From positions 1,800-65,799 of the forward strand of contig CALKAI010000046.1 of the NCBI GenBank assembly GCA_937983275.1: a stretch of DNA of 64,000 nt, written 5' to 3'. Source of the DNA: an uncultured Trueperaceae bacterium. Lineage in GTDB: Bacteria; Deinococcota; Deinococci; Deinococcales; Trueperaceae. Both the position numbers and the translations under genes were made by a program. The notes under the pieces were generated by a model, which ran no database searches, was not told the origin of the DNA, and saw only the letters and a list, made by a program, of their open reading frames with translations. Below, one piece after another: positions 6,917 to 47,020 of this stretch; position 1 is the stretch's first letter; each line of letters opens with the position of its first letter.

Positions 6917-7657
6917 TCAGACACCGACGAACCGCTCGATCTCTTCGCGCGCGCCGGGTTCCGAAGCCGTCACGGACCCCGCCCAGCGACCATCGCGCAG
7001 GAACAGGATCCGGTTGGCAGTGAGCGCGGCCTTCAGGTCGTGGGTGACCATCACGACCGTCCAGCCCTGCTCATCCACGCCGCTGCGCAGCAGGTCGAGG
7101 ACCTCCTGGCCCGTTTCGCTGTCCAGATTGCCGGTGGGCTCGTCGGCGAGGATCACGACCGGATCGTTGATGAGCGCCCGCGCTATGGCTACGCGTTGCC
7201 GCTGGCCACCGGAAAGCTGCTTGGGCCGGTGCTGCAGCCGGTTGCTGAGGCCCAGCCGCGCCGCCAGCCTGTCCAGCCGCTCCCTGGCACCCTCCCGGTT
7301 GCCCGCCACCTCGGCAGGCAGCAGGATGTTCTCCAGCGCCGTCAGGTTGGGTATCAGTTCGAAGGTCTGGAACACGAAGCCCAGCTGCTCGCGACGCATG
7401 CGCGTCAGCTCGTCATCGTCTAGGCCTGAGGCCGAGACACCCCCGACGATCACCTCACCCGAATCGGGCACCTCGAGGAGGCCCAGCAGGTGCAGGAGCG
7501 TGCTCTTGCCGGACCCGGAGGCGCCCATTACGCTGACGAACTCGCCCGGTTCGACGGCGATATCGACCGAGTCGAGAGCCACCACCGTCTGTTCGCCCAG
7601 CCTGAACCTCTTGTTCAGATTACGGCCCTCGATCGCGTAGGTTTTCTGTGCACACAT
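6917..7657 (-). CDS. ABC transporter ATP-binding protein, MacB/LolD-like
   Basis: Walker A GASGSGKST, signature LSGGQRQRVAIARAL and Walker B VILADEPTGNLD are present. Confidence 0.92.
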   Translation of the reverse strand: MCAQKTYAIEGRNLNKRFRLGEQTVVALDSVDIAVEPGEFVSVMGASGSGKSTLLHLLGLLEVPDSGEVIVGGVSASGLDDDELTRMRREQLGFVFQTFELIPNLTALENILLPAEVAGNREGARERLDRLAARLGLSNRLQHRPKQLSGGQRQRVAIARALINDPVVILADEPTGNLDSETGQEVLDLLRSGVDEQGWTVVMVTHDLKAALTANRILFLRDGRWAGSVTASEPGAREEIERFVGV

Positions 7658-7666
7658 AAGACTGAT

Positions 7667-10231
7667 CTACTCCGAATTGCCGAGTGCCAGCACGGGAGGC
7701 AGGGAGGCCGCACGTCTGGCGGGAAAGTAGGACGCTGCCAGGCCAATGATGGGCGAGGCGAGGAAGGCGATGAGAATCAGGCCCCACGGGTAGTGTGGCG
7801 AGATGGCGAAGCCTGTGATGGCTGCGGCGCCCGCCGTGATCACGTGGGCAAGCAGCAGGCCGGCTAGCACGCCCAGTACCGTTCCGACCAGCAGGATAAC
7901 CGAGCCCTCGGCGGTGATGACCCTGGCGACACCCGCGCGGGTAAGGCCAAAGGCGCGCAGGACGGCCAGCTCATACTTGCGGCCCGACAGGTTCATGCCC
8001 AGGGTATTGGCTACCCCCAGGGCGGCGATGAACACCGCCAGCGCGAGCAGGGCGTTGGTCGTCACGAAGGTGCGCTGGGTCAGCTCCAGGATCGACGCCC
8101 GGTAGTCCTGATTGAGAGTTACATCCAGGTAGAGGTCGGGGAAGGCGGCCAGCAGGTCTTCGCGCGCCTGCGCCGGATCGACCCCCTCTTCGACCAGCAT
8201 CACGAACAGGTCAGGTGATCCCCCGCCGAACAGCTCCATGTCGTTGATCGACGCCACCGCGGCCTCCCCGCCGCCGGTAAAGTCGACGATCACACCGCCC
8301 ACGGGGAACTCCCGGAAACCCTCGCTGGTGCGCAAGGAGACCGTTTCGCCCTGGTTGACGTTGAACCTGTCGTGGATCGTGTTGGCGACGAGGACGTTCC
8401 CGCCCTCGAGCAGTGCCCGGTAGCCGCTCTCGTCGTCTCCCTGACCGGGGATGTACTGGAAGCGGCCAAAACCGGCCCCGGGCTCGAAGCGCGCCGGATC
8501 CACCAGCACCAGGGCGATGCTGCGCTGCCTGAACTCGCCTTCCGGATCGAACCGCACCACGCGCAAGCCCGCTCCCGAGGCAACGCGTATCCCGGGAACG
8601 GCAGCCGTCACCTGCTCCTCGAAGTCGGCGGGGAAGTGGACGGGGGAGGTCACGAACAGGTCTCCCAGGATCGTGGTGTCCACCCACTCCTCGATCGCCT
8701 GGTTGATGCCCGCCACCATCGCGCCCACGCCTATGGTGAGCCCCAGGCCCACCACGACGGACCCGATCGCCACGCCGTTGCGGGGTGCGTTCCGCTCCGC
8801 GAACGAGGCGCCCAGCCGGCCGGCCGGGCCAAAGACGCGTACCAGGAGTCCGCGCAGCAGGCCCAGGACCGGCTTCAGCAGCCCCGGTGTCGCCAGGGTT
8901 ATGCCGAAGAAGAGCAGGCACATCGCCAGCGCGGCACCCAGCAGCGCCAGACTGCCCTCCCAGGGGAGCAGTGCCACTACCACACCCGTGGCGACGGCCC
9001 CCCAGCCGAGCAGCACCGCTCCCCGCCTGGGTTCGAACTCGTCGGACCGCCGCAGTGCGGTAAGCGGTGGTGTTTGCGACGCTGCCCGCGCGGGGAGGTA
9101 ACCGGCCAGCATGGCCACGCCCACACCTGTCAGTGCGGCGGGCAGCACGCTCTGCAGCGGGAACACGAGCGTCCTGAACTCGATCCCCAACACCAGGGCG
9201 TTGAGCCTCGTGATTACGTAGGCGAGCAGCACACCCAGGAGGAGTCCCGCGATCACGCCCAGCAGGCTCACCACCGCGGCCTCGTAGAGCGCTATGCGCT
9301 GCACCTGGCCGCGCGTCAGGCACAGCGTGCGCAGCAGGGCATACTCCCTCTTGCGCTCCACGACCGCCGCCATGAAGGTGTTGTAGGCCATGAAGCCGCC
9401 CAGCGCCATAAGGGTGATCGCAAGGATCGTCAGGCCCGCCTGAATCGTGTCCACTACCCCGGTGGCGATATTGCCGGCACCGGCCGGGTGAGTGACGGTG
9501 TAGTCGACCCCCAGCTGGTTGGCCAGCCGGTCCTGTACCTGAGCCGTCGGCTGGCGGCCGGTGAGCTGAAGTTCTATGTGGCTGGCCCGGCCCGGGAGCC
9601 TGAGCAGCTCCTGGAGGTCGGGCAAGGGAACGACCGCCACGCGTCCGCCGTTCGTAGATGCGAAGGCGTATCCGTCGTCGAGCAGCCCCGTTATCTGCAG
9701 CTCGAACGAACCGAGCTGGCCCACGAAGGTAACCGTGTCACCAACCTCGATTCCGCGGCCGCGCGCGAAGTCGCCGCCTATCGCCGCGCCGTAGCTGCCG
9801 GGCTGCGGGAGCGCACCCTCGCTGATGCGCACCGGCGGGTTCGCGGCCTCGTCGAGGCGGCGACCGGATATCTGGAAGCCGGAGTCGACTCCGGGGATGA
9901 TGGAACTCTCATGCTCCTGGACTTCCCGCTCCGGTTCGGCCCGCGTGTTCAGCACGGGCACCGCTTGGGCGATGTCGGGATCGCCCTCCAGGCGTCCCAG
10001 GATGTCTTCGATGTCCAGGACTGCCCGCCCCTCGAGGCCCGGCGCGATCAGCAGGTCGGCGCCGCCCGAGGCGGCAGAGAGGGTACTGGCAACGTTCGCT
10101 TCCACGTTGTCGCCGATGGAGAGCGTGGCCAGTACCGCCGCGATGCCTATGGCTACACCTACGACCGTAGCAGCGGTGCGCCACGGGTGGCGCAGCAGGT
10201 TACGTACGGCTAGCCGCAAGAGCATCGGCAC
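7667..10231 (-). CDS. ABC transporter permease with duplicated FtsX/MacB-type domains
   Basis: The 854-aa protein begins LRLAVRNLLRHPWRT. It has two FtsX-like four-helix modules, each followed by a large extracytoplasmic loop. It ends 9 nt upstream of the ATPase gene. An alternative ATG start lies at 10225. Confidence 0.88.
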   Translation of the reverse strand: MPMLLRLAVRNLLRHPWRTAATVVGVAIGIAAVLATLSIGDNVEANVASTLSAASGGADLLIAPGLEGRAVLDIEDILGRLEGDPDIAQAVPVLNTRAEPEREVQEHESSIIPGVDSGFQISGRRLDEAANPPVRISEGALPQPGSYGAAIGGDFARGRGIEVGDTVTFVGQLGSFELQITGLLDDGYAFASTNGGRVAVVPLPDLQELLRLPGRASHIELQLTGRQPTAQVQDRLANQLGVDYTVTHPAGAGNIATGVVDTIQAGLTILAITLMALGGFMAYNTFMAAVVERKREYALLRTLCLTRGQVQRIALYEAAVVSLLGVIAGLLLGVLLAYVITRLNALVLGIEFRTLVFPLQSVLPAALTGVGVAMLAGYLPARAASQTPPLTALRRSDEFEPRRGAVLLGWGAVATGVVVALLPWEGSLALLGAALAMCLLFFGITLATPGLLKPVLGLLRGLLVRVFGPAGRLGASFAERNAPRNGVAIGSVVVGLGLTIGVGAMVAGINQAIEEWVDTTILGDLFVTSPVHFPADFEEQVTAAVPGIRVASGAGLRVVRFDPEGEFRQRSIALVLVDPARFEPGAGFGRFQYIPGQGDDESGYRALLEGGNVLVANTIHDRFNVNQGETVSLRTSEGFREFPVGGVIVDFTGGGEAAVASINDMELFGGGSPDLFVMLVEEGVDPAQAREDLLAAFPDLYLDVTLNQDYRASILELTQRTFVTTNALLALAVFIAALGVANTLGMNLSGRKYELAVLRAFGLTRAGVARVITAEGSVILLVGTVLGVLAGLLLAHVITAGAAAITGFAISPHYPWGLILIAFLASPIIGLAASYFPARRAASLPPVLALGNSE

Positions 10232-38127: not shown

Positions 38128-39309
38128 ATGATAGCTGGCCCTCTCGACACCACACGGATCCTTGAAGTGGACAATCAGCACGGCCCGGGACTCTGGAAGC
38201 CGGATGTAGCCCTGGTACGCGGGGAAGGCGTCCGCGTCTGGGATGCGGACGGCCGCGAGTACCTGGATTGCCTCGCCGGCATTGCCGTCGCGAGTCTCGG
38301 GCACTCCCACCCTCGTCTCGTACGCGCCATCTCGGAGCAGGCCCAGAAACTGATCGTCTTTGGCCAGAACATCGGGAGTGACACGCGCAGCCGGTTCCTG
38401 GAGAAGCTCTTCACCTTCGTGCCGGCCCCGCTCACCAGGGCGTTCATGGCCAGCTCCGGGTCCGAGGTGAACGAAGCGGCGATGAAGTGGGCGCGCGTGG
38501 CCACCGGCAGGCCAAAGTTCGTTGCCGCGAAGAGGGGTTTCTCGGGCCGCACGATGGGCGTGCTGGGGCTCACCTGGGAGCCCGGCTACCGCGAGCCGTT
38601 CGGCCCGCTGGGCATCGAGGTCGAACACATCACCTACAACTCGGTAAGGGAGCTCGAGGCGGCGATCGACGAGCGCACCGCCGCCGTCTTCGTTGAGCCC
38701 ATCCAGGGCGAGGGCGGCATGAACGCGGCCAGTCCGGAGTTCCTGCAGGAGGCCAGACGGCTTACGCGGGAGCGGGGAGCGCTGCTCGTATTCGACGAGA
38801 TCCAGTCCGGTGCGGGACGCACCGGCCGCTTCCTGGCGAGCGAGTGGCACGACGTGCAGCCCGACATGGCGACACTCGCCAAGGGGCTTGCGGGTGGCGT
38901 ACCCATTGGCGCGCTCCTCATGACCGATGAGGTGGCCGGCGCGATGCCAACCGGGGGCCACGGCAGCACCTTTGGTGGCAACCCTCTGGCCAGTGCGGCG
39001 GCGCTCGCCGTCCTCGAGGAGATCGAGGAGAGCGACCTGCTGAGCCACGTTCGCAGGGTCGGTGAGCTGCTCCAGACGGGACTTGCCGGGATTGGCGGTC
39101 CACTGGTCAGAGAGGTGCGCGGTCGCGGCCTGATGGTCGGTGTGGAGCTGGCAGAGAAAGCGGGCCCATACATCACGCGCCTGCGCGAAGCCGGCGTGCT
39201 GACGATCGCCGCCGGTTCCCACGTGATCCGCTTCGTGCCGCCGCTGATCATCAGCGAACGCGAGGTCGAGGAGGTCGTGGAGCGGGCAGCCGGGGTCCTG
39301 AGAGGGTAA
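38128..39309 (+). CDS. Class-III aminotransferase, acetylornithine / [LysW]-aminoadipate-semialdehyde aminotransferase type
   Basis: SGSEVNEAAMKWAR, VFDEIQSGAGRTGRF, the TLAKGLAGGVPIGA PLP-lysine region, and GSTFGGNPLA are present. ArgD and LysJ cannot be distinguished by eye. Confidence 0.9.
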   Translation: MIAGPLDTTRILEVDNQHGPGLWKPDVALVRGEGVRVWDADGREYLDCLAGIAVASLGHSHPRLVRAISEQAQKLIVFGQNIGSDTRSRFLEKLFTFVPAPLTRAFMASSGSEVNEAAMKWARVATGRPKFVAAKRGFSGRTMGVLGLTWEPGYREPFGPLGIEVEHITYNSVRELEAAIDERTAAVFVEPIQGEGGMNAASPEFLQEARRLTRERGALLVFDEIQSGAGRTGRFLASEWHDVQPDMATLAKGLAGGVPIGALLMTDEVAGAMPTGGHGSTFGGNPLASAAALAVLEEIEESDLLSHVRRVGELLQTGLAGIGGPLVREVRGRGLMVGVELAEKAGPYITRLREAGVLTIAAGSHVIRFVPPLIISEREVEEVVERAAGVLRG

Positions 39310-39336
39310 GGAGCGGGCGCAGCACCGCCATGGAAA

Positions 39337-39370
39337 GGGGCCTGGGAGAGCGGACGCTCTCCCAGGCCCC
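39337..39370. terminator. Bidirectional stem-loop between convergent aminotransferase and ferredoxin genes
   Basis: GGGGCCTGGGAGAGC-ggac-GCTCTCCCAGGCCCC forms a perfect 15-bp stem. Confidence 0.6.
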
Positions 39371-39390
39371 TGCCACTGGTCCGGTGGAAA

Positions 39391-39639
39391 CTAGCCGTCG
39401 TACTCGATACCGGACAGGTCGTAGTTCTTCTTGATGTAGGGTGCCCACTGCAGCGGGACGTCCTCTTCCGGGAAGATGGCGCTTACCGGGCAGGCCGGCA
39501 CGCAGGCACCGCAGTCGATGCACTCCTCGGGGTGTATGTACAGCTGGTCATTCGCCTCGTAGATGCACTCGACCGGGCAAACGTCGACGCAGGACCTGTC
39601 CTTGGTGCCGATGCAAGGCTCTGCGATGATGTGTGGCAT
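39391..39639 (-). CDS. Ferredoxin (7Fe-type, 3Fe-4S plus 4Fe-4S pattern)
   Basis: The cluster motifs are CIGTKDRSCVDVCP and CIDCGACVPACP, in an 82-aa protein. Confidence 0.92.
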   Translation of the reverse strand: MPHIIAEPCIGTKDRSCVDVCPVECIYEANDQLYIHPEECIDCGACVPACPVSAIFPEEDVPLQWAPYIKKNYDLSGIEYDG

Positions 39640-39774
39640 TTGTTTCCTCCCAGGCGGCCCGCGTGACCGCCACGATCGTGCTGCTGCCGGACCGGCTGCC
39701 CCAGACCCTGCCGGTCCGTGTTCGGGCCGATGCTACCACGGCCCCCGCCGGGGCAAAGGTAACCTCGGTCAGGA

Positions 39775-40410
39775 TTACGGGGCGCCTTCCTCTGCCTGTT
39801 CCCTGGCCCCCTCGAACACGTAGGCCTCGCGCAGGAGGCGCAGGTCGGCGTCGTCCACCACTCCGTCGCGGTTGATGTCACCGGTGATGTTGATGCCCGT
39901 CTCCCCGTAGTGCCGGGCGAGGAGCGCCAGATCGAGCACATCTACCGTGCCGTCGTTGTTCAGGTCCGCGGGGTTCCCGCCCACCGCGGCCAGCTGCGCC
40001 AGGGTGGCATCGTCCAGCCGGGCCGGCTGCCCGGCAGCGATTGCCTGCGACATTATCCCCTCGTCCCGCGGCCCCAGCCCCAGCAGCAGGCCAAACTCGT
40101 GCAGCAGGGCAACCTGCTGCTGCTCGCTCCCCTCCTTGACGAGGACGTCCAGCTGCCCGCCCTCACGCAGAAGGGTGAGGCTAAGGGTGTCCGGCCCCAT
40201 CTGCTCGTCGGAGACAAGGTCGAAGTTCAGCTGACCGTTGGTCGCTACCTCCTCCAGGTTCACTTCGGGAGCAGCAGCGCTCCACTGTGCTGCAGCCTCG
40301 CGGACAGCCTGCCGGAAGGCCGTGTCGTTCACGTCCGGGTCGAAGGAGTAGGTCTGGGCATGCGCCAGCGCGGGAATGAGAAACGCCAGGAGCGCGAGAA
40401 GTTTCCTCAT
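39775..40410 (-). CDS. Secreted protein with degenerate metzincin-like motif and C-terminal type-I-like dockerin
   Basis: The signal peptide is MRKLLALLAFLIPALAHA. LHEFGLLLGLGP resembles matrixin HEFGHxLGLxH with the 2nd and 3rd His replaced. Two dockerin Ca-loop/helix segments are present: DLNNDGTVDVLDLALLARHY and DINRDGVVDDADLRLLREAY. Confidence 0.7.
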   Translation of the reverse strand: MRKLLALLAFLIPALAHAQTYSFDPDVNDTAFRQAVREAAAQWSAAAPEVNLEEVATNGQLNFDLVSDEQMGPDTLSLTLLREGGQLDVLVKEGSEQQQVALLHEFGLLLGLGPRDEGIMSQAIAAGQPARLDDATLAQLAAVGGNPADLNNDGTVDVLDLALLARHYGETGINITGDINRDGVVDDADLRLLREAYVFEGAREQAEEGAP

Positions 40411-40952
40411 CGGCGCGCCTCCAGTTCGGCGCCAACCAAATCGATGACCGTGTTCGCAGGCGCCTCGAAGCCGCCCAGGCGCAGCGAGCCATCCTCGTCG
40501 ATGCCCAGCAGGGTGCCGTCCTGGGAGAGGACGTTGTCGTCCTGCAGGCGGAACAGTCCCTGGTTGAAACCTACCAGTGGCGAGTAGTAGGCGGCGTCGT
40601 AGGCCAGCACCAGTACCCGCTCCGAGAGTTCGAAGGCCGGCATACCCTGGACATCCACCTCCGCAATGCCGGGACCGCTGCCGCCCAGGAAGGCCAGGCT
40701 GGTGCGCTCCTCGGTCTCACCCTCGAGCGCGCGCTCGACGGCGAACTCGACGATGGTCCAGGGCAGGCCGTCGCGCATCTCCACGTCCAGTCCCCGCACC
40801 GTCCCCACGAATGCAACCTCCGTTGCGTCCAGAATCTCGCTAAGCGAGAGCTGGCGGTAGGTGGTGGCGGCAGCAGCGGGGAGCAGGGCAAGGAGCAACA
40901 CCAGCACGGTCGTGTGCAGCAGTGGCCTGCTGGCCTGGGTTGTGCGGGTCAT
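40407..40952 (-). CDS. Secreted hypothetical protein
   Basis: The 181-aa protein has a signal peptide (LLHTTVLVLLLALLPAAAA). It shares 4-nt overlaps with both neighbours. I recognise no domain. Confidence 0.6.
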   Translation of the reverse strand: MTRTTQASRPLLHTTVLVLLLALLPAAAATTYRQLSLSEILDATEVAFVGTVRGLDVEMRDGLPWTIVEFAVERALEGETEERTSLAFLGGSGPGIAEVDVQGMPAFELSERVLVLAYDAAYYSPLVGFNQGLFRLQDDNVLSQDGTLLGIDEDGSLRLGGFEAPANTVIDLVGAELEARR

Positions 40953-41848
40953 TCTGCCTCCTCCGGGCGGGACTCTTCGGCTTCAGCCTCTGCGGTTTCC
41001 GGGTCCTGGTCGCCTGAACCGGGCTCACCGTCGTTCGCTGGTTCTTCGGCAGGCCCGTCGCCGTCCGGCTCATCTTCGCCGTCGGCGGGAGAACCCGCAG
41101 CTTCACCGGGAGTGTCGCCGTCCATGTGCTCGTTGCCGAGGTCGTCGATGATCCGGGCGGTCAGCTGAGTCCGCAGCCGGGCAGGTTCAGTGGGGACGAG
41201 CGTCACCTGGGCCACGTTGGCCGTACCATTCCAGGCGGCGCCCAGGGACGCGAAGTCCACCTGGAGCACGCCCTCGCCAGCGCGCGAGGTGTCCGTGAAG
41301 ATTGCGGTATTGCCGAGGGCACGCACGGCGTTCTCAGGGGCGAGCGTGAAAGCCGCCGGATCCCAGGTGAGCTGAACGCTCGCAGCCCGAACCCGGTGAG
41401 CATCACGCAAACCCAGGCCTATCGTGACGGGCTCGCGGACCTCGGTCGCCGGTGCGTCGACAACCACCTGTGGTGCCGGCCGTTCGCTCACCTGCAGCGT
41501 GTAATCCTCGAAGGTGCTCGACAGGTTGGCGTCGGAGACCGCCACGGTGAACTCGAACTGACCCGTCTCGGTCGGCGTGCCCCTCACCGATCCCCCCTGG
41601 AGTTCCAGGCCGGCCGGGAGCTGTCCGTCCTCCAGCCGGAAGGTGAAGGGCCGCAGCCCGCCGGTGGCCCTGATCGGCTCGTCGTACGGCTCGCCCACCC
41701 AGGCGGTGGGCAGGTTGCGGTTGCCCTGAAGGCGCAGCGCCTCACCAGGCGTCTGGATCTCGCCGCCGCAGGCCGCCAGCGCCAGGATCAGCGCGGCAAG
41801 CAGCGGCAGCAGACGCCTGCGTTGGCTGGCCGCTCTACTCGTGTTCAC
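40949..41848 (-). CDS. Lipoprotein with putative Ig-like (He_PIG/cadherin-like) module, cohesin-like module and acidic disordered tail
   Basis: The lipobox is LLAALILALAAC-GG. The Ig-like pattern is PFTFRLEDGQLPAGLELQGGSVRGTPTETGQFEFTVAVSD. The cohesin-like pattern is VTIGLGLRDAHRVRAASVQLTWDPAAFTL...GVLQVDFASLG...ANVAQVTLVP. I prefer the GTG at 41848; the ORF-track start at 41962 overlaps treS by 115 nt. Confidence 0.65.
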   Translation of the reverse strand: MNTSRAASQRRRLLPLLAALILALAACGGEIQTPGEALRLQGNRNLPTAWVGEPYDEPIRATGGLRPFTFRLEDGQLPAGLELQGGSVRGTPTETGQFEFTVAVSDANLSSTFEDYTLQVSERPAPQVVVDAPATEVREPVTIGLGLRDAHRVRAASVQLTWDPAAFTLAPENAVRALGNTAIFTDTSRAGEGVLQVDFASLGAAWNGTANVAQVTLVPTEPARLRTQLTARIIDDLGNEHMDGDTPGEAAGSPADGEDEPDGDGPAEEPANDGEPGSGDQDPETAEAEAEESRPEEAE

Positions 41849-43485
41849 TACTGGATCCCCAACCACAGGTACTCGTAAGGTTGCAGCACGATGTTCATAT
41901 GGGGCGTGACGGTTCCGAAGACCTGCTTCGTGAACAGGTCTATGAGCTGACGCCCCTCCCATTCGGCCAGGTCCAGCTCCGTGCGCTCCACCTCGGGCGA
42001 CAGGTTGTGCAGGGCCAGCACGATGTCCTCCTCGTACTGGTTCAGGAAAGGCAGGATCGCCTTGTTCTCGGGCCTCAGCAGCTCGAAGCGCCCCTGGCCC
42101 AGCGCCGGATGCTGCTCGCGCGTCTTGATGAGGTTGCGCATCCAGTTGAGGAGGCTGTCGGGATCCTGCTCCTGGGCGGCGACGTTCACCTCGTGGAAGG
42201 CGTAGTCGCCCTCATCGATGACCGGTGCGTACAGCCGGGCCTTCGCCGCCTCCGAGAAGCCGGCATTCTCGCCGCCGTGCCACTGCATGGGCGTGCGGAC
42301 GCCGTTCCGGTCGGGCAGCTCGATGTTGTCACCCATGCCGATCTCGTCGCCGTAGTAGATGATCGGCGTGCCCGGCAAGGTCATCAGCATCGAGTTCATG
42401 AGCCGGATCTTGCGCATGTCGCCCCCCAGCAGCGGCGCCAGCCGCCGGCGTATCCCCACGTTGATCCGCATGCGCGGCTCCGGCGCGTAGGTTTCGTACA
42501 TGAAGGCCCGCTCCTCCTCGGTCACCATCTCCAGGGTCAGTTCGTCGTGATTGCGCAGGAACACGACCCACTGGCAACTCTCGGGGATGGCAGGGGTGTT
42601 TTCCAGGATCCACTCCACACTCTGCCGGCTGCCTTCGGCCACGGCCATGTAGAGTCGGGGCATGACCGGGAAGTGGAAGAGCAGCGGCATCTCGTCGGTG
42701 CCGTCGCCGAAGTAGGCGATGGTGTCCTCCGGCCACTGGTTCACCTCACCCAGCAGGAACGCGTCGGGCTTGATGGTGTCGATGTAGGCGCGCAGCTCCT
42801 TGAGGTACTCGTGGGTCTCTGCCAGATTCTCGTTGTTGGTGCCCTCCCGCTCGATGAGGTAGGGGATCGCGTCCATGCGGAAGCCGTCGATGCCCAGCTC
42901 GAGCCAGAAGCGCACGATGCGCTTCATCTCCTCCCGCACCTCGGGGTTGTCGTAGTTGAGGTCGGGCTGGTGGCTGAAGAAGCGGTGCCAGTAGTACTGG
43001 CCGCGCACCGGATCGAAGGTCCAGTTGGAGGTTTCGGTGTCGGTGAAGATGATGCGCGTACCCGAGTACTTCTCGGGATCGTCGCTCCACACGTACCAGT
43101 CGGACTTCGGGTTGTCCTTACCCTGCCTGGACTCCTGGAACCAGGGGTGGTCGCTGGAGGTGTGGTTCACGACGAGGTCGGTGATGACCTTCAGACCACG
43201 AGCATGAGCCTCGCGCACGAGCTGCTGGAAGTCGTCCAGGGTCCCGTAATCCTCATGGATGTTATAGAAGTCGGTAACATCGTAGCCGTCGTCACGCAGG
43301 GGAGAGGGGCTTATGGGCAGGAGCCAGATGACGTCAACGCCAAGGCTCCTGATGTAGTCGAGTTTCTGGATGACGCCAGCCAGGTCGCCGTGTCCGTCTT
43401 CGTCGGAATCGCGGTAGGCACGAACATAGAGCTCGTAGAGAACAGCCCTCTTAAACCACGTGGTATCGATGTTGGCCATCTTCAC
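41848..43485 (-). CDS. treS: Trehalose synthase (maltose alpha-D-glucosyltransferase), GH13, short form
   Basis: WFKRAVLYELYVRAYRDSDEDGHGDLAGVIQKLDYIRSLGVDVIWLLPI, DLVVNHTSSDHPWF, GIDGFRMDAIPYL, FLLGEVNQW and FLRNHDELTLE are the four GH13 regions in the TreS context. Confidence 0.92.
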   Translation of the reverse strand: MKMANIDTTWFKRAVLYELYVRAYRDSDEDGHGDLAGVIQKLDYIRSLGVDVIWLLPISPSPLRDDGYDVTDFYNIHEDYGTLDDFQQLVREAHARGLKVITDLVVNHTSSDHPWFQESRQGKDNPKSDWYVWSDDPEKYSGTRIIFTDTETSNWTFDPVRGQYYWHRFFSHQPDLNYDNPEVREEMKRIVRFWLELGIDGFRMDAIPYLIEREGTNNENLAETHEYLKELRAYIDTIKPDAFLLGEVNQWPEDTIAYFGDGTDEMPLLFHFPVMPRLYMAVAEGSRQSVEWILENTPAIPESCQWVVFLRNHDELTLEMVTEEERAFMYETYAPEPRMRINVGIRRRLAPLLGGDMRKIRLMNSMLMTLPGTPIIYYGDEIGMGDNIELPDRNGVRTPMQWHGGENAGFSEAAKARLYAPVIDEGDYAFHEVNVAAQEQDPDSLLNWMRNLIKTREQHPALGQGRFELLRPENKAILPFLNQYEEDIVLALHNLSPEVERTELDLAEWEGRQLIDLFTKQVFGTVTPHMNIVLQPYEYLWLGIQ

Positions 43486-43585
43486 TCCTGATGAACGAGA
43501 TTCTACTGGCTACCAACCTAACCCCCATCTGTGCCTGTCGTAGTGGTTACCATGCGCACCGGTCGGTACAGTCGGAAGGAGCGCG

Positions 43586-46500
43586 ATGAAGATCATCACA
43601 CTGCCATACCGTCTAGCCGGACCCGTCCGGGAGTTCCTGCTCTCCCGCGAGGCCCGCGAGCGCTACGGTGTGCACGAGGATCTACTGTCTCTGCGCGGCA
43701 CGCTTCTCGTCGCCGACATGGACGCCGCCCAGCTCCTTGCGCACCGCGTGAACTCGGTGCGGGACGTGGGCCGCAATCCTCACTCCTCTGTCAGTCCCGG
43801 GGAGATTCTGGCCGCCGGAATCCTCCACGAGCTGCAACACCTGCTGGTGATGCGCCTGCGGGAGGAGGACGGGACCCTGCTCAGGGTGCCGCTCGAGCAG
43901 GTTGCGGCGTCGCTGGGCGAGTCCCGGCTGCAATCGTTCCTGGTCAGGTTCGTGAGCAACTTCCCGCCCCGCGGGGTCACCGGTGACGAGGGCGCCCTCG
44001 CCTACCTCCAGGCGAGCACCGATGGGCTGGAGCACAGCGAGCTCGCTTTCGAGGAGCTGCTCCTCCTGGAGACCGCCCGTCAGAACCCCGCACTCGAACG
44101 TCTGCGCGAGCTGTTCACCGCGACCCCGCTGTTCGAGCCGGAGTCGCGCGAGGTCATGGGCCGGCTGCTGGCCGGCGCACGCGAGCAGGACGCGGGTGGC
44201 GACGAGGAACAGGTGGTGCAGGGGGCCCGGAACCTGATCGAGCTCCTCGAGGCGCCCATGCGGAACAGTCCCACGACGCTCTTCGGGCAGCTGCAGTACG
44301 CCCGTGAGCATTGGCTGCCCCTCCTGGGGGAAGCCGGCGCCCGCCTGCTGGAGCTCGTGCTCTTCGGTCAGGATGTTCTGGCAGAGGAGAACAAGCCCAC
44401 CTTCCTGGGCCCCGCCCCCGCGCTGGAGCCGTTCGAGGAGGACGACCTGGTCCCCTCGGCCGAGCTCGACGAGCGGTTCAGCCAGGACGAGCCGTGGATG
44501 AAGGAGCTGGTGCTCGTCGCCAAGAGCACCTACGTGTGGCTGGATCAGCTCTCCCGCAAGTACGGGCGCGAGATCAGCAGCCTCGACCAGATCCCCGGGG
44601 AGGAGCTGGACGAGTTGCGGGCCCGCGGCTTCAACGGGCTGTGGCTCATAGGCATCTGGGAGCGCAGCGATGCCTCGCGCAAGATCAAGCAGCTGCGCGG
44701 GCAGCCGGAAGCGCTCGCCAGTGCGTACGCGATCAACGATTACCGGATCGCCCCGGAATTGGGGGCCGAGCCGGCGCTGCGCGAGCTGGAGAAGCTCGCC
44801 GCCCAGCGCGGGATGCGGCTGGCGAGCGACATGGTACCCAACCACACCGGCATAGACAGCCGCTGGATAATCGAGCACCCGGACTGGTTCATGCAGCTTT
44901 CCGAGTCGCCCTTCCCCGGCTACAGCTTCGACGGTCCCGACCTGTCCTCGGACCCGCGCGTCGGCATCTACCTGGAGGACCACTACTACGACAGCAGCGA
45001 TGCTGCCGTGGTGTTCAAGCGTGTCGACCACGAGAGCGGCGAGGAGCGCTACATCTATCACGGCAACGACGGCACGGCGATGCCGTGGAACGACACGGCG
45101 CAGCTCGACTACCTCAATCCCCGGGTGCGCGAGGCCGTCATCGACACGATAGTGAGCGTCGCGAAGCGCTTCCCGGTGATCCGCTTCGACGCCGCCATGA
45201 CCCTCGCGCGGCGGCACGTGCGCCGGCTCTGGTACCCGAAGCCGGGTGAGGGCGGCGCAATCCCCTCCCGCGCCCGCTACGGCAGCATGAGCGACTCCCA
45301 GTTCGACCGGGCCATGCCGCGCGAGTTCTGGCGCGAGGTGGTGCAGGCGGTCGAACGCGAGGCGCCGGGAACACTCCTGCTGGCCGAGGCCTTCTGGATG
45401 ATGGAGGCCTACTTCGTGCGCCACCTTGGCCTCCATCGCGTCTACAACAGCGCCTTCATGCACATGATGAAGCGTGAGGCGACGGGCGAGTACCGGACGC
45501 TGCTGAAGCGCATCCTGAAGCTCGAGCCGCGCATCCTGGAGCGGTTCGTCAACTTCATGAACAACCCGGACGAGGACACGGCGGTCCTGCAGTTCGGCAA
45601 GGGCGACAAGTACTTCGGGGTGGCCACGGTCATGGCGACGATGCCCGGCCTGCCGATGTTCGGTCACGGGCAGGTCGAGGGTCTGGCCGAGAAGTACGGA
45701 ATGGAGTTCCGCCGCGCCCGCCGCCGCGAACGGGTTGACGAGGAGCTGGTGGAGCGGCACGAGCGGCAACTTAGCCCGCTGTTGCACAGGCGCGCCCAGT
45801 TCGCGTCGGTCGACGGATTCGAGCTGTTCGACTTCGAGGGGCAGGGCGGCGTCGACGAGGAGGTCCTCGCCTACGGCACGGCGGGGCCGGTCCTGGTCCT
45901 GTTCAACAACCGCTTCGGGGAGACCTCGGGCGTCGTGCGCAACGGGGCGCCCAAACGGCGGCCCGACGGCTCGACAGGCAGCATCGACCTGCGCAGCTTC
46001 CTGGGACCAGCTCTGGAGGCCGCCGGCGGGCGGGACCGCGCCGGCGATTTCATCGTGTGCCGGGACCGGGTAACGGACCGCGAGTACCTCTATACCTGGT
46101 CACAGTTGCAGGACGGCCTGCCGGCACACCTGGGCGCCTACGAGCACCGGGTGCTGGACGATTTCCGGTGGGTTGCTGACGTTGATGAGGAGCTGCTGCG
46201 GGCAGTGCATGCCCGGGTGGGCTCCAGGGGGGTGGCTTCTTTGCAGGGTGAGTTGGAGCGGACCCGGTCCGAGCCGGTTATCTCGGCCTGGGATGATTTT
46301 CTTTCGGTGCCGTTTCTCGACGTGGATGCCAGCGTTGGCGCTTACGGTGACTTCCTTGCGGCAGTACGTGAAACGGAGGGGGAGGATGAGAGCTCCTCCA
46401 GCAGTGGTGCACGGGAGCGCTTCCGGGCACTGGTTCATGCTGCCACGGCCTTCCAGTACGGGCCCGGGCAGGTGCAGGAGGCGTTCGAGCGCTGCGCGCT

Positions 46501-47020
46501 CACGGTCCAGTCGGTCATTGGTCTCTTGCCGCTGGAGGAGGGCACTTTCGAGCGTTTCTACCTGGAGGATGCGCTGCTTAGCGGCGAGCACACCACCGGC
46601 GACTCGTTCGATCCGGATCTGGTCACGAGGGTGATTCCTGCCGTGAATGGCGCCTTGCGGGAGCAGCTGCTGGAGGAGCCGGCTGCGGGCGGCGATCCGG
46701 GGGCGACGGCAGGCGCCGAGTACCGGATTGGCGGGGAGCCGTCGGTGGAGTTCAGCGAGGTGCTGAATTTCCTGCACGAGCTGCTGCAGTCCGAGGAGGG
46801 CACGGAGCTTCTCGGGGTCAACCGCTGGGAAGGGGAGGAGTACTTCGACCGGGATGCCTACCGGCTGCTGGCCAGCTCCTACCTGTTCGCCCTGGCGGCC
46901 ATCCGCGGCTCATCCACCGGTGTGGTTACCGGTCTTGCCGACGTGCTGGAGGAGATCGCCGAATTCGAGGAGGGCAGCCAGTACCGCCTGGAGGCGCTGC
47001 GCGCCGGTCAGCGGCCGTAG
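43586..47020 (+). CDS. Very large (1144 aa) atypical alpha-amylase-family (GH13-like) protein with long N- and C-terminal extensions
   Basis: The central domain reads GFNGLWLIGIWERS. Region I is ASDMVPNHTG. Region II is VIRFDAAMTL. Region III is LLLAEAFWM. Region IV is the variant FMNNPDED. About 330 aa N-terminal and about 400 aa C-terminal carry no motif I recognise. Confidence 0.85.
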   Translation: MKIITLPYRLAGPVREFLLSREARERYGVHEDLLSLRGTLLVADMDAAQLLAHRVNSVRDVGRNPHSSVSPGEILAAGILHELQHLLVMRLREEDGTLLRVPLEQVAASLGESRLQSFLVRFVSNFPPRGVTGDEGALAYLQASTDGLEHSELAFEELLLLETARQNPALERLRELFTATPLFEPESREVMGRLLAGAREQDAGGDEEQVVQGARNLIELLEAPMRNSPTTLFGQLQYAREHWLPLLGEAGARLLELVLFGQDVLAEENKPTFLGPAPALEPFEEDDLVPSAELDERFSQDEPWMKELVLVAKSTYVWLDQLSRKYGREISSLDQIPGEELDELRARGFNGLWLIGIWERSDASRKIKQLRGQPEALASAYAINDYRIAPELGAEPALRELEKLAAQRGMRLASDMVPNHTGIDSRWIIEHPDWFMQLSESPFPGYSFDGPDLSSDPRVGIYLEDHYYDSSDAAVVFKRVDHESGEERYIYHGNDGTAMPWNDTAQLDYLNPRVREAVIDTIVSVAKRFPVIRFDAAMTLARRHVRRLWYPKPGEGGAIPSRARYGSMSDSQFDRAMPREFWREVVQAVEREAPGTLLLAEAFWMMEAYFVRHLGLHRVYNSAFMHMMKREATGEYRTLLKRILKLEPRILERFVNFMNNPDEDTAVLQFGKGDKYFGVATVMATMPGLPMFGHGQVEGLAEKYGMEFRRARRRERVDEELVERHERQLSPLLHRRAQFASVDGFELFDFEGQGGVDEEVLAYGTAGPVLVLFNNRFGETSGVVRNGAPKRRPDGSTGSIDLRSFLGPALEAAGGRDRAGDFIVCRDRVTDREYLYTWSQLQDGLPAHLGAYEHRVLDDFRWVADVDEELLRAVHARVGSRGVASLQGELERTRSEPVISAWDDFLSVPFLDVDASVGAYGDFLAAVRETEGEDESSSSSGARERFRALVHAATAFQYGPGQVQEAFERCALTVQSVIGLLPLEEGTFERFYLEDALLSGEHTTGDSFDPDLVTRVIPAVNGALREQLLEEPAAGGDPGATAGAEYRIGGEPSVEFSEVLNFLHELLQSEEGTELLGVNRWEGEEYFDRDAYRLLASSYLFALAAIRGSSTGVVTGLADVLEEIAEFEEGSQYRLEALRAGQRP

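What the first reader, a model, noticed from the sequence alone, without database searches (positions are those of the whole stretch)
39775..41848. Three-gene operon encoding a cohesin-like lipoprotein and a dockerin-bearing secreted protein: a minimal surface-display (cellulosome-like) module in a non-cellulolytic context
Seen in sequence: the last gene ends with two unmistakable dockerin repeats (DLNNDGTVDVLDLALLARHY and DINRDGVVDDADLRLLREAY). The first gene has a lipobox (LALAAC). It also carries a PxGLxL...GTPTxxGxFxFTVxVxD Ig-like module. A module follows whose strand pattern (VTIGLGL...ASVQLTWDPAAFTL...GVLQVDFASLG...VAQVTLVP) resembles a cohesin. All three genes overlap by 4 nt (40949-40952 and 40407-40410). 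Inference: the lipoprotein anchors the dockerin protein, and perhaps the middle protein, at the cell surface. No glycoside hydrolase domain is attached to the dockerin, so the function is unknown.
Basis: partly seen in the sequence, partly recalled or inferred. Interest (0 to 1): 0.7.

Follow-up and report, generated by a model that had tools for sequence, protein, structure and literature searches.

The report
Lipoprotein cohesin tethering a dead metalloprotease
A three-gene operon conserved across Trueperaceae/Deinococcales encodes a lipid-anchored protein with one divergent cohesin, a secreted TIMP-like barrel protein, and a secreted matrix-metalloprotease-like domain that has lost its zinc-binding residues and ends in a dockerin, so it looks like a minimal non-cellulosomal cohesin-dockerin tether whose cargo is a pseudo-protease rather than a sugar-degrading enzyme.

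Summary
Three translationally coupled minus-strand genes (ATGA overlaps) encode the following.

- **A:** a lipoprotein (lipobox LAAC) with a He_PIG Ig domain, a cohesin-like module and an acidic tail.
- **B:** a secreted 181-aa protein.
- **C:** a secreted protein ending in a Pfam-significant dockerin.

A's second module is a true but divergent cohesin. Its AlphaFold model superposes on C. perfringens cohesins (TM 0.69-0.74). Its family profile finds PF00963 cohesin repeats in register, although the module alone misses Pfam's threshold.

New findings:
- C's cargo is matrixin-like. HEFGLLLGLGP replaces HExxHxxGxxH and the Met-turn is kept. No relative has the zinc triad, so it is predicted non-catalytic.
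- B's model weakly but coherently resembles NTR/TIMP OB folds and has a near-invariant free N-terminus (TTY).
- B and C are fused in about half of related genomes.
- A-B-C is intact in 44 of 51 Trueperaceae/Deinococcales loci.

Best reading: A tethers the B·C complex to the cell envelope through a calcium-dependent cohesin-dockerin contact. Binding, location and biological role are untested. I rate it a new variant of a known kind, of moderate-high interest.

The parts
40949..41848 (-). Gene A: 299-aa lipoprotein (signal peptide and lipobox, He_PIG Ig domain, single cohesin, acidic tail). Acts as the membrane anchor or 'mini-scaffoldin'.
   Evidence: ORF. The GTG start overlaps the upstream TAG stop. 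There are 53 full-length homologues, all from Trueperaceae/Deinococcales where named. The alignment shows an invariant Cys27.
41768..41848 (-). Lipoprotein signal peptide: n-region with RRR, hydrophobic core, lipobox LAAC with Cys27.
   Evidence: Read directly from the sequence. Cys27 is invariant and Leu24 is at least 90% conserved in 52 homologues.
41486..41713 (-). He_PIG (putative Ig) domain, residues 46-121. Probably a stalk or spacer.
   Evidence: Pfam PF05345, E 1.3e-10, 42 bits against a cut-off of 24. It resembles the cadherin-like stalk modules of SraP, 4m02/4m03.
41114..41476 (-). Divergent cohesin module, about residues 125-245.
   Evidence: AlphaFold pLDDT is 92-98 across the module. 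Foldseek matches cohesins 2vo8 (TMt 0.73, rmsd 2.3 A), 2jh2, 2w1n, 4ums and 3l8q. The family profile hits PF00963-bearing proteins in register. Pfam Cohesin is the only hit for the isolated module but is sub-threshold at 12.9 bits.
40952..41113 (-). Acidic, predicted disordered C-terminal tail of A (residues 246-299; 39% Asp+Glu).
   Evidence: pLDDT is 49-64. Composition. Tails of variable length and sequence occur in all homologues.
40407..40952 (-). Gene B: secreted 181-aa protein. It has a Sec signal peptide (residues 1-29, A-x-A|TTY) followed by an OB-fold domain with N- and C-terminal helices (NTR/TIMP-like).
   Evidence: ORF. ATGA overlap and Shine-Dalgarno sequence. No Pfam, NCBIfam or PDB sequence hit. 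AlphaFold pLDDT 76. Top Foldseek hits are agrin NtA, PCOLCE and meteorin NTR domains, C3/C4 C345C and TIMP-1/2, at E 3.5e-3 to 0.1.
40857..40865 (-). Predicted mature N-terminus of B (Thr30-Thr31-Tyr32). It is T-[T/S]-aromatic in nearly all relatives.
   Evidence: Alignment of 48 B domains. T1 of the mature chain is at least 90% conserved in alignment A6.
39775..40410 (-). Gene C: secreted 211-aa protein. Signal peptide (residues 1-18, AHA|QTY), degenerate matrixin-like domain, then a dockerin.
   Evidence: ORF. ATGA overlap and Shine-Dalgarno sequence. Homologues, plus 44 locus-derived relatives.
39991..40356 (-). Metzincin (matrixin)-like pseudo-protease domain, about residues 19-140. HEFGLLLGLGP (40069-40101) stands in place of HExxHxxGxxH. 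The Met-turn GIM lies at 40045-40059.
   Evidence: The family profile against PDB returns metzincins in all 60 hits shown: MMP-2 and stromelysin-3 at E 7e-5, snapalysin at 3e-3 over positions 2-112. Pfam Peptidase_M10 is hit by 7 of 27 members, best E 5.6e-7. The second and third zinc-binding His are absent in every relative.
39820..39966 (-). Dockerin: two 20-residue repeats, each with an intact D-x-N-x-D-G-x-x-D-x-x-D calcium loop followed by a helix.
   Evidence: Pfam PF00404, 32.7 bits against a cut-off of 22.9. PDB dockerin matches. Coordinates. Two dockerin repeats are present in every C relative.
41848..43485 (-). Context: trehalose synthase TreS gene whose TAG stop overlaps the GTG start of A. 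Probably co-transcribed in this genome but not a conserved part of the module.
   Evidence: TIGR02456, 838 bits against a cut-off of 678. Overlap shown. TreS lies directly upstream of A in only 9 of 51 related loci.

Best explanation
This is a minimal, non-cellulosomal cohesin-dockerin tether of the cell envelope.

- **Protein A** is exported, lipid-modified at Cys27 and held in a membrane. An Ig-like He_PIG domain acts as a stalk and presents one divergent cohesin.
- **Protein C** is secreted through Sec. Its C-terminal dockerin has two intact calcium loops and plugs into A's cohesin. This fixes C's cargo to the envelope.
- **C's cargo** is a matrixin-fold domain. It keeps the Met-turn and the helix motif H-E-x-G-x-L-x-G-L but has lost two of the three zinc-binding histidines. 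It is therefore predicted to bind rather than to cleave.
- **Protein B** is secreted separately, or made as the N-terminal half of a B-C fusion in about half of related genomes. It is an OB-fold domain of NTR/TIMP-like topology. Its invariant free N-terminus (T-T/S-aromatic) probably sits in the vestigial active-site cleft of C, the way TIMP or PotA sits on an MMP.

The assembled product is a lipoprotein-anchored, non-catalytic B·C complex. I read it as a fossil protease-inhibitor pair reused as an envelope-bound binding or regulatory module.

**Shown here:** the domain identities, loss of the zinc site, translational coupling, conservation of gene order, and the B-C fusions.

**Inferred:** A-C binding, B-C binding, calcium dependence, the compartment, and the biological ligand.
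For: **Dockerin.** Above the Pfam threshold, and both calcium loops are complete.

**Cohesin.**
- Fold match to solved cohesins at TM 0.69-0.74 and rmsd 2.3-3.0 A, from a model with pLDDT above 90 in the module.
- The profile search reaches PF00963 repeats in register. Examples: P0121 1095-1195 against Pfam 1091-1197; P0131 166-268 against 168-276; P0134 198-299 against 193-299.
- The closest solved relatives of both modules include the non-cellulosomal C. perfringens pair: cohesins 2vo8/2jh2/2w1n and dockerin 2jnk/2ozn.

**Lipobox.** The Cys is invariant in 52 homologues.

**Operon.** ATGA overlaps with Shine-Dalgarno sequences.

**Conservation.** 44 of 51 species-level loci keep A, B and a dockerin-ended C in this order. 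The 7 exceptions are:
- 3 loci cut by a contig end;
- 1 locus hidden by a masked stretch;
- 3 loci where A stands alone.

**B-C fusion.** B and C lie in one ORF in about 21 loci, joined by an acidic linker.

**Cargo.** All 60 listed PDB profile hits are metzincins. The HExxH helix and the Met-turn align, and no relative has the full zinc triad.

**B.** 9 of the top 11 Foldseek hits are NTR-superfamily modules. The signal-peptidase site A-x-A followed by T-T/S-aromatic is conserved.

**Distance-matrix comparison.** Dockerin divergence tracks the cohesin (r 0.68) better than it tracks He_PIG, B or the cargo (0.59-0.65). Partial r(cohesin, dockerin | He_PIG) is 0.45, against 0.22 for (He_PIG, dockerin | cohesin). 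This is weak support only.
Against: - No binding was or could be tested here, and co-folding was not available.
- The window's own cohesin module is below Pfam's gathering score. Its family profile reaches cohesin 2vo8 in PDB only at E 0.17.
- B's NTR/TIMP assignment rests on one 9-sequence AlphaFold model (pLDDT 76) and Foldseek E-values of only 3.5e-3 and weaker.
- B has no sequence-level link to any family. It also lacks the Cys1/Cys3 disulfides that define TIMPs.
- With the zinc gone, a TIMP-style N-terminal chelation cannot operate as such.
- Three related genomes carry A without B or C next to it. A can therefore exist without an adjacent partner.
- Only 64 kb of this genome is visible, so other dockerins or cohesins elsewhere cannot be excluded.
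- The mirror-tree signal could reflect rate differences between modules.
Confidence: 0.55

Rival explanations
1. The cohesin of A and the dockerin of C are both genuine but are not each other's partners. Each binds a different dockerin or cohesin protein encoded elsewhere in the genome, or the dockerin binds an S-layer or cell-wall component. The genes are neighbours only because they belong to the same envelope-related operon.
For: Three related genomes have A alone at its locus. Only 64 kb of the genome is visible and it holds just one dockerin. Other cohesin-dockerin proteins exist widely, and some distant hits carry both modules.
Against: There is strict 1:1 co-occurrence and translational coupling in 44 of 51 loci across many species. 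Dockerin divergence tracks the cohesin better than it tracks any other module.
Confidence: 0.2
2. C is still an active, tethered protease that uses a non-canonical metal or catalytic site. B is its co-transcribed inhibitor or chaperone that prevents premature activity, as with PotA-karilysin or AprI-alkaline protease. The system would then be a surface protease for nutrient acquisition.
For: His and Glu of HExxH are kept in most relatives and the Met-turn is conserved. An operon pairing an OB-fold lipoprotein inhibitor with a bacterial MMP is a documented design in Tannerella forsythia (PMC9890683). B has an NTR/TIMP-like fold.
Against: The second and third zinc ligands are missing in all of the roughly 45 relatives. 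Even the first His or the Glu is replaced in several lineages, which read IAIG, HSLG, HVVG, HALG, YELG or RELG. The only invariant residues of the domain are one Trp and one Gly. A permanent fusion of an inhibitor to its enzyme fits a structural pair better than a regulated protease.
Confidence: 0.1
3. The dockerin-like repeats act only as a calcium-binding stabilising module, and A's second domain is a generic beta-sandwich with some other role. There would be no cohesin-dockerin contact, and the three proteins would be independent envelope proteins kept together by synteny.
For: The whole region is syntenic in this family. The flanking alpha-amylase-family gene and the transaminase gene are conserved too, so gene order alone is weak evidence. 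The cohesin module is below Pfam's threshold on its own.
Against: Overlapping start and stop codons indicate co-translation, not mere synteny. The profile and the fold both identify the module specifically as a cohesin, not as a generic Ig fold. B-C fusions show that at least two of the three proteins act together.
Confidence: 0.1
4. The module serves alpha-glucan or trehalose metabolism, because it is coupled to TreS and sits next to a large alpha-amylase-family gene. It might, for example, hold a glucan-binding complex at the envelope.
For: The TreS stop overlaps the start of A. TreS is upstream in 9 related loci and the 1144-aa alpha-amylase-family gene is the divergent neighbour in 39 loci.
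Against: No carbohydrate-binding or glycoside hydrolase domain is found in A, B or C. The N-terminal sequences of TreS and the 1144-aa protein, as read, show no obvious signal peptide, whereas A, B and C are exported. Most loci lack TreS at this position.
Confidence: 0.05

Closest known systems
Non-cellulosomal cohesin-dockerin complexes of Clostridium perfringens (NagJ/NagH toxin-glycosidase complexes; structures 2ozn, 2jnk, 2vo8, 2jh2, 2w1n)
   Same: They use a cohesin-dockerin contact outside cellulose degradation. They are the best structural matches of A's module and among the best sequence matches of C's dockerin.
   Different: There, the modules sit on large active glycoside hydrolases of a Firmicute and assemble secreted enzymes with one another. 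Here, one cohesin sits on a small lipoprotein and the dockerin carries a dead metzincin domain, in Deinococcota, and the two are encoded in a single operon.
Cellulosomal anchoring scaffoldins and the single-cohesin ClcC/ClcD 'minimal cellulosome-like system' of Cellulosilyticum lentocellum (PMC13487519)
   Same: A cell-bound protein with one or a few cohesins holds a dockerin-bearing partner. In ClcC/ClcD there is one cohesin protein and one dockerin protein encoded about 40 bp apart.
   Different: Those systems anchor through SLH, sortase or CBM modules and carry active glycoside hydrolases with CBMs. Here the anchor is a lipobox, there is no CBM and no glycoside hydrolase, and the cargo is non-catalytic.
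Potempin A-karilysin of Tannerella forsythia, and TIMP-MMP pairs (PMC9890683)
   Same: A matrixin-fold domain is genetically linked to a small OB-fold protein encoded immediately upstream and co-transcribed, and one partner is a membrane lipoprotein. TIMPs use a free N-terminus with Thr or Ser at position 2 (my own knowledge of TIMP structures). B has a conserved free T-T/S-aromatic N-terminus.
   Different: Karilysin and the MMPs are active zinc enzymes, whereas C lacks two zinc ligands. In T. forsythia the inhibitor itself is the lipoprotein. Here a third protein supplies the anchor through a cohesin-dockerin contact. B lacks the TIMP disulfides and has no sequence similarity to TIMP, NTR or potempins.
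Degenerate LytM factors NlpD and EnvC (my own knowledge, not tested here)
   Same: They are envelope-tethered metalloprotease-fold domains that have lost their metal ligands. They act as binding or regulatory subunits rather than enzymes, and NlpD is a lipoprotein.
   Different: They have a different fold (LytM/M23 rather than metzincin), attach directly rather than through cohesin-dockerin, and have a known role as amidase activators. No such role is shown for C.

Membership tests
Dockerin (Pfam PF00404, type I-like) | Score above the curated Pfam threshold | tested here: met
   32.7 bits against a cut-off of 22.9, E 8.8e-8, residues 148-194.
Dockerin (Pfam PF00404, type I-like) | Two tandem repeats of about 22 residues, each an EF-hand-like calcium loop (Asp/Asn at positions 1, 3, 5, 9 and 12) followed by a helix | tested here: met
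   DLNNDGTVDVLD and DINRDGVVDDAD both have D1, N3, D5, D9 and D12. They align to solved dockerins 2y3n, 2jnk and 5lxv.
Dockerin (Pfam PF00404, type I-like) | Calcium-dependent binding to a cohesin | not testable with these tools
   Needs ITC or pull-down, or multimer co-folding.
Cohesin (Pfam PF00963) | Score above the curated Pfam threshold | tested here: not met
   The full-length protein gives no hit at E up to 1. The isolated module scores 12.9 bits against a cut-off of 24.1, E 0.13, although Cohesin is its only hit. 4 of 30 family members hit it, best E 0.0089.
Cohesin (Pfam PF00963) | Homology to recognised cohesins detectable by profile search | tested here: met
   The 30-sequence profile finds multi-repeat proteins at E 1.6e-19 to 6e-8 among 1.84e9 sequences. 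9 of the 10 checked carry PF00963, coincident with the matched stretch. The profile against PDB gives only 2vo8 at E 0.17.
Cohesin (Pfam PF00963) | Flattened beta-sandwich (jelly-roll) fold of about 120-150 residues | tested here: met
   AlphaFold pLDDT is 92-98 across residues 125-245, with nine strands by DSSP. Foldseek gives 2vo8 TMt 0.73 and rmsd 2.3 A over 125 columns, and 2jh2 TMt 0.69-0.74.
Cohesin (Pfam PF00963) | Binds a dockerin | not testable with these tools
   Supported only indirectly, by operon linkage in 44 of 51 loci and a weak mirror-tree signal.
Cellulosome | Scaffoldin with two or more cohesins | tested here: not met
   A has one cohesin module.
Cellulosome | Dockerin fused to a glycoside hydrolase or other carbohydrate-active enzyme, with a CBM on the scaffoldin | tested here: not met
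   No glycoside hydrolase or CBM family was found in A, B or C. The cargo is metzincin-like.
Bacterial lipoprotein | Signal peptide ending in the lipobox [LVI][ASTVI][GAS]C | tested here: met
   The sequence reads RRRLLPLLAALILALAAC. The Cys is invariant and Leu at position -3 is at least 90% conserved in 52 homologues. Lipidation itself was not tested.
Metzincin / matrixin (MEROPS M10, Pfam PF00413) | Zinc-binding motif HExxHxxGxxH | tested here: not met
   The motif is HEFGLLLGLGP in the window. The second and third His are absent in all of the roughly 45 relatives.
Metzincin / matrixin (MEROPS M10, Pfam PF00413) | Met-turn downstream of the motif | tested here: met
   G-I/V-M is conserved and aligns with the MMP Met-turn (ALMAP / ALMSP) in the HMMER alignments.
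Metzincin / matrixin (MEROPS M10, Pfam PF00413) | Sequence homology to the catalytic domain | tested here: met
   The family profile against PDB gives 1qib and 1hv5 at E 7e-5 and 1c7k at 3.3e-3 over positions 2-112, and all 60 listed hits are metzincins. PF00413 is hit by 7 of 27 members, best E 5.6e-7. The window protein alone is sub-threshold at E 0.01-0.04.
NTR / TIMP module | OB-fold barrel flanked by terminal helices | tested here: inconclusive
   The model has pLDDT 76 from 9 sequences. Foldseek top hits are 1jb3, 3i70, 1uap, 7tlh, 6xzu, 1br9 and 7s7m, but E is only 3.5e-3 to 0.1 and TMt 0.32-0.55.
NTR / TIMP module | N-terminal Cys1 with conserved disulfides, and sequence match to PF00965 or PF01759 | tested here: not met
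   Mature B has no cysteine. There are no Pfam or PDB sequence hits for 25 members or for the profile. B therefore cannot be filed as a TIMP. Only its working principle may be similar.

The most novel reading that the evidence does not exclude
B and C are a prokaryotic counterpart of the TIMP-MMP pair. B would be an NTR-fold module whose invariant free N-terminus occupies the cleft of a matrixin-fold domain. The pair would be frozen into a permanent, non-catalytic heterodimer (often a single chain) and mounted on the membrane by a private one-to-one cohesin-dockerin pair. If so, the NTR-on-metzincin binding mode exists outside animals. Cohesin-dockerin would also be used in Deinococcota as a general envelope-assembly device for a pseudo-enzyme receptor or regulator.
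Probability: 0.3. Interest if true: 0.8.

Novelty: new variant of a known kind. Interest (0 to 1): 0.6.

Why it matters
Hundreds of cohesin and dockerin modules occur outside cellulosomes, and for most of them neither the partner nor the purpose is known.

This operon offers an unusually clean case. It has one cohesin and one dockerin, encoded together with overlapping genes, and it is conserved in more than 40 species of one bacterial lineage. Partner specificity can therefore be tested directly with three small recombinant proteins.

The cargo is also unusual: a matrix-metalloprotease-like domain that has lost its zinc site, accompanied by, and often fused to, a TIMP-like barrel. If the B-C contact is confirmed, it would give a bacterial example of a protease-inhibitor pair turned into a structural or regulatory envelope complex. 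It would also bear on where the TIMP/NTR way of gripping metzincins came from.

For annotation, it gives domain-level names to three protein families that public sources currently label 'hypothetical' or 'Ig domain-containing'.

Tried and rejected
1. **Direct family searches on A and B.** Pfam and NCBIfam on full-length A gave no cohesin hit, and on B no hit at all. phmmer of A and B against PDB gave only noise: HisF and Kemp eliminase for A, a dehydrogenase for B.
2. **Cohesin-module profile against PDB sequences.** Only 2vo8 appeared, at E 0.17, alongside an unrelated desuccinylase at E 0.036. This is not significant alone, so I went to the 1.84-billion-sequence profile search instead.
3. 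**B-family profile against PDB, and Pfam on 25 members.** Nothing was found. B's classification therefore rests on fold comparison only.
5. **Search for an intact metzincin that B might inhibit.** None was found in the window or in the 53 fetched loci.
6. **Promoter and terminator scan of 39200-43700.** No promoter-like site was found, and terminator-like sites were at the level expected by chance.
7. **Literature.** There is no paper on cohesin or dockerin in Truepera or Deinococcus. Peer et al. 2009 is not held in the library.
8. **Cellulosome reading.** Rejected: there is one cohesin, no glycoside hydrolase and no CBM.
9. **A-B-C fusion.** Long stop-free frames in some loci suggested that A, B and C might be fused. 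This was rejected on arithmetic from the coordinates, because the frame differs from that of A.

Full report
**1. Checking the observation**

The region holds three minus-strand ORFs:
- A, 40949-41848, 299 aa counted from the GTG at 41848;
- B, 40407-40952, 181 aa;
- C, 39775-40410, 211 aa.

Direct reading confirms that both junctions are ATGA overlaps, each preceded by a GGAGG-type ribosome-binding site. The genes are therefore translationally coupled.

The GTG start of A overlaps by one base the TAG stop of the upstream gene. That gene is a bona fide trehalose synthase (TIGR02456, 838 bits against a cut-off of 678). In this genome the transcript may therefore begin further upstream.

Composition is uniform at about 65-67% G+C across the area, so nothing suggests a foreign island. 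Many long ORFs on the opposite strand are the usual high-GC artefacts.

**2. The dockerin**

- Pfam Dockerin_1 scores 32.7 bits against a gathering cut-off of 22.9, E 8.8e-8, at residues 148-194 of C.
- phmmer against PDB sequences finds 15 dockerins at E below 1. The best are a Cel48 dockerin (2y3n, E 2.5e-5) and the C. perfringens NagH dockerin (2jnk/2ozn, E 4.5e-4).
- Both calcium loops carry Asp/Asn at positions 1, 3, 5, 9 and 12 (read from the sequence).
- A six-frame motif scan finds no other dockerin in the 64-kb window.

**3. The cohesin question**

Full-length A gives only He_PIG in Pfam (E 1.3e-10, residues 46-121) and no cohesin. I collected 53 full-length homologues with the same architecture. 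Every one that carries a name is from Trueperaceae, Deinococcales or Deinococci. I aligned them. The lipobox Cys is invariant, and the domain after He_PIG is well conserved, with a W-D motif and an L-x-V-D-x-A-x-L-G motif.

- **Fold.** AlphaFold with this alignment gave pLDDT 85.6 overall and 92-98 over residues 40-245. Foldseek against PDB returned two kinds of match.
  - Long, high-rmsd alignments to tandem Ig-like adhesins such as SraP, PrgB and AgI/II.
  - Compact low-rmsd alignments of about 125 columns, which are all cohesins: 2vo8 (TMt 0.73, rmsd 2.3 A), 2jh2 (0.69-0.74), 2w1n and 4ums. The dyad 3l8q also appears, as a long, high-rmsd (~20 A) alignment.
- **Sequence profile.** A profile of the isolated module (alignment A2) reaches 2vo8 in PDB only at E 0.17. 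The same profile searched against 1.84 billion representatives finds 138 proteins.
  - Beyond the family itself these are large proteins matched in 2-12 repeated stretches.
  - Of 10 I scanned, 9 carry PF00963 Cohesin, up to 10 copies each.
  - Pfam coordinates coincide with the matched stretch, for example 1095-1195 against 1091-1197.
- **Pfam on the isolated module.** For the window's own module Pfam Cohesin is the only hit, but it is sub-threshold at 12.9 bits, E 0.13. Four of 30 members hit it.

Conclusion: this is a true but divergent cohesin. It meets the fold criterion and the profile-homology criterion but fails the curated single-sequence threshold.

**4. What the dockerin carries**

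C has few database homologues (7). I therefore extracted C from the related loci (see section 6) and aligned 46 sequences. The N-terminal 120-130 residues show three conserved blocks:
- a motif A-x-x-W;
- Y-G-x-x-x-F-G-P-D-T-L-S-L-T;
- L-L-H-E-x-G-x-L-L-G-L followed by G-V-M-N-P.

A profile of this domain (A4) hits metzincin catalytic domains in all 60 PDB hits shown (64 matched): MMP-2 and stromelysin-3 at E 7e-5, snapalysin at 3e-3 across positions 2-112, and also MMP-1, -9, -12, -14, -16 and myroilysin. The printed alignments place h-e-l-G-l-l-l-G-l on H-E-F-G-H-x-x-G-L and G-v-M-n-p on the Met-turn. Pfam Peptidase_M10 is hit by 7 of 27 members, best E 5.6e-7.

In the window the motif reads HEFGLLLGLGP where a matrixin has HEFGHxxGLxH. 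The second and third zinc-binding histidines are missing in every relative. In some lineages even the first His or the Glu is replaced. The only invariant residues are one Trp and one Gly.

From what is established about metzincin catalysis (three His ligands plus the general-base Glu; my own knowledge), this domain should not bind zinc canonically or cleave peptides. It is a pseudo-protease under purifying selection for its fold.

**5. The middle gene**

B has no hit in Pfam, NCBIfam or PDB sequences, either alone or as a 25-member profile. Alignment of 48 B domains shows a Sec signal peptide ending in A-x-A, followed by an almost invariant T-T/S-aromatic. The predicted mature N-terminus is thus conserved.

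AlphaFold with 9 sequences gave pLDDT 76 and pTM 0.71. The model has an N-terminal helix, a long beta-hairpin, further strands and a C-terminal helix.

Foldseek matches are individually weak (best E 3.5e-3, none at or below 1e-3; TMt 0.32-0.55) but coherent. Nine of the first eleven are NTR-superfamily OB folds:
- agrin NtA, in four entries (described by its depositors as 'structurally related to N-TIMP-1');
- PCOLCE NTR;
- meteorin NTR;
- C3 C345C;
- TIMP-2;
- further down the list, complement C4 and several TIMP-1 to MMP complexes.

B lacks all cysteines, so it is not a TIMP family member. The resemblance is one of fold and possibly of working principle.

**6. Conservation and fusion**

A degenerate-pattern scan of one genome per species returned 51 loci. 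Those classified in their record titles are Trueperaceae, Deinococcales/Deinococcaceae or Deinococcota MAGs, including a Truepera radiovictrix MAG; 15 records are titled only 'uncultured bacterium'. Local HMMs for B and C show the following.

| Locus outcome | Number of loci |
|---|---|
| A immediately followed by B and by a C ending in two dockerin repeats | 44 |
| Cut by a contig end | 3 |
| C position hidden under a masked N run (L003) | 1 |
| A alone, in a low-GC lineage (L018, L034, L038) | 3 |

In about 21 loci B and C lie in one ORF as B, acidic linker, C. An example is the 444-aa protein of GCA_034520945.1. This fusion is strong evidence that B and C act as a unit, and it keeps B's N-terminus free.

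The surrounding region is syntenic. A 1144-aa alpha-amylase-family gene is the divergent upstream neighbour in 39 loci, and a LysJ/ArgD-type transaminase lies downstream in 32. TreS sits directly upstream of A in only 9 loci. I therefore treat the glucan genes as neighbours, not as parts of the module.

**7. Do the cohesin and dockerin partner each other?**

This could not be tested directly. Indirect evidence:
- one-to-one co-occurrence and translational coupling;
- both modules find their nearest solved relatives among non-cellulosomal C. perfringens modules;
- a distance-matrix comparison over 45 taxa.

In that comparison the dockerin's divergence correlates best with the cohesin's (r 0.68, against 0.59-0.65 for the other modules). 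Partial r(cohesin, dockerin | He_PIG) is 0.45, against 0.22 for (He_PIG, dockerin | cohesin). The cohesin also tracks C's cargo (r 0.82) more closely than it tracks the He_PIG domain of its own polypeptide (0.71). Differences in evolutionary rate could produce the same pattern, so I count this as weak support only.

**8. Mechanism proposed**

A is lipid-anchored and its He_PIG domain acts as a stalk. He_PIG resembles the rigid cadherin-like stalk modules of SraP. Its cohesin captures the dockerin of C in a calcium-dependent way. C's dead matrixin domain is occupied or partnered by the NTR-like B through B's free N-terminus. The result is an envelope-tethered, non-catalytic B·C complex that serves as a binding or regulatory module.

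Precedents for the separate ideas:
- Potempin A-karilysin: an OB-fold lipoprotein inhibitor co-transcribed with a bacterial MMP (PMC9890683).
- TIMP-MMP pairs.
- Degenerate LytM factors such as NlpD and EnvC (my own knowledge).

Whether A faces the periplasm or the outside is unknown for these diderm-like Deinococcota. The acidic disordered tails of A, of the B-C linkers and of C relatives remain unexplained. They may reflect saline habitats or calcium binding.

**9. Comparison with known systems and novelty**

The tether is a known kind. Cohesin-dockerin pairs outside cellulosomes are documented and are mostly on non-catalytic proteins (Peer et al. 2009, as cited in PMC13487519).

It is not a cellulosome: it has one cohesin, no glycoside hydrolase and no CBM.

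Several features are new, and none of them turned up in the searchable literature:
- the lipobox-anchored single-cohesin protein;
- the pseudo-matrixin cargo;
- the NTR-like partner that is often fused to it;
- conservation as an operon throughout a Deinococcota lineage.

Public sources name these proteins only 'hypothetical' or 'Ig domain-containing'.

**Verdict.** It is a new variant of a known kind. Interest is 0.6. It would rise to about 0.8 if the TIMP-like/MMP-like contact is confirmed.

Noticed in passing
window 41846-41850 and 41848-43485 (-): The TAG stop of a trehalose synthase gene (TreS, TIGR02456, 838 bits) overlaps the GTG start of the cohesin lipoprotein gene by one base. An apparently cytoplasmic sugar-metabolism gene and an exported envelope module therefore appear to be co-translated here. 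The same TreS-then-A order occurs in 9 of 51 related loci.
   Followed up: partly
window 43586-47020 (+): A 1144-aa protein gives only weak alpha-amylase-family matches (NCBIfam E about 1e-7, far below cut-offs). It is the conserved divergent neighbour of the module in 39 of 51 related loci. It is a large, poorly characterised glucan-enzyme-like family.
   Followed up: partly
window 40952-41113 (-); L001 6921-8255; proteins P0057-P0062: Long acidic, proline- and glycine-rich, predicted disordered segments recur at the C-terminus of A (39% Asp+Glu), between B and C in the fusion proteins, and after the dockerin in C relatives. Their role is unknown. Possibilities include saline-habitat adaptation, calcium buffering or S-layer contact.
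   Followed up: no
L018 5995-6786; L034 and L038, about 5900-6800: A low-GC Trueperaceae sublineage keeps the cohesin lipoprotein but has no B or C gene beside it. Unrelated genes follow instead (alanine racemase-like and others). Whether B and C moved elsewhere or were lost is unknown.
   Followed up: partly
L003, about 7480-7700: A masked or gap stretch (a run of N) lies exactly where gene C is expected. The apparent absence of C in this MAG is therefore an assembly artefact.
   Followed up: yes
window 41735-41767 (-), residues 28-38 of A: Directly after the lipidated Cys there is a strongly conserved stretch, G-E-(L/I)-x-T-P-G-E-A-L-R-(L/I). Gly35, Glu36, Ala37, Leu38 and Arg39 are at least 90% conserved or invariant in 52 homologues. 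That is more conserved than most of the Ig domain. The function is unknown; it may be a strand that docks on the He_PIG domain or a sorting signal.
   Followed up: no
proteins P0131 and P0134 (distant profile hits): Distant relatives of the cohesin module include proteins that combine cohesins, a dockerin and a type IX secretion C-terminal sorting domain (Por_Secre_tail). This points to cohesin-dockerin systems exported by T9SS in another phylum.
   Followed up: no
window 39391-39639 (-): A FdxA-type 4Fe-4S ferredoxin gene lies 135 nt downstream of gene C on the same strand. No terminator-like site was detected in the gap between them. It is present near the module in only 9 related loci, so it is probably unrelated.
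   Followed up: partly
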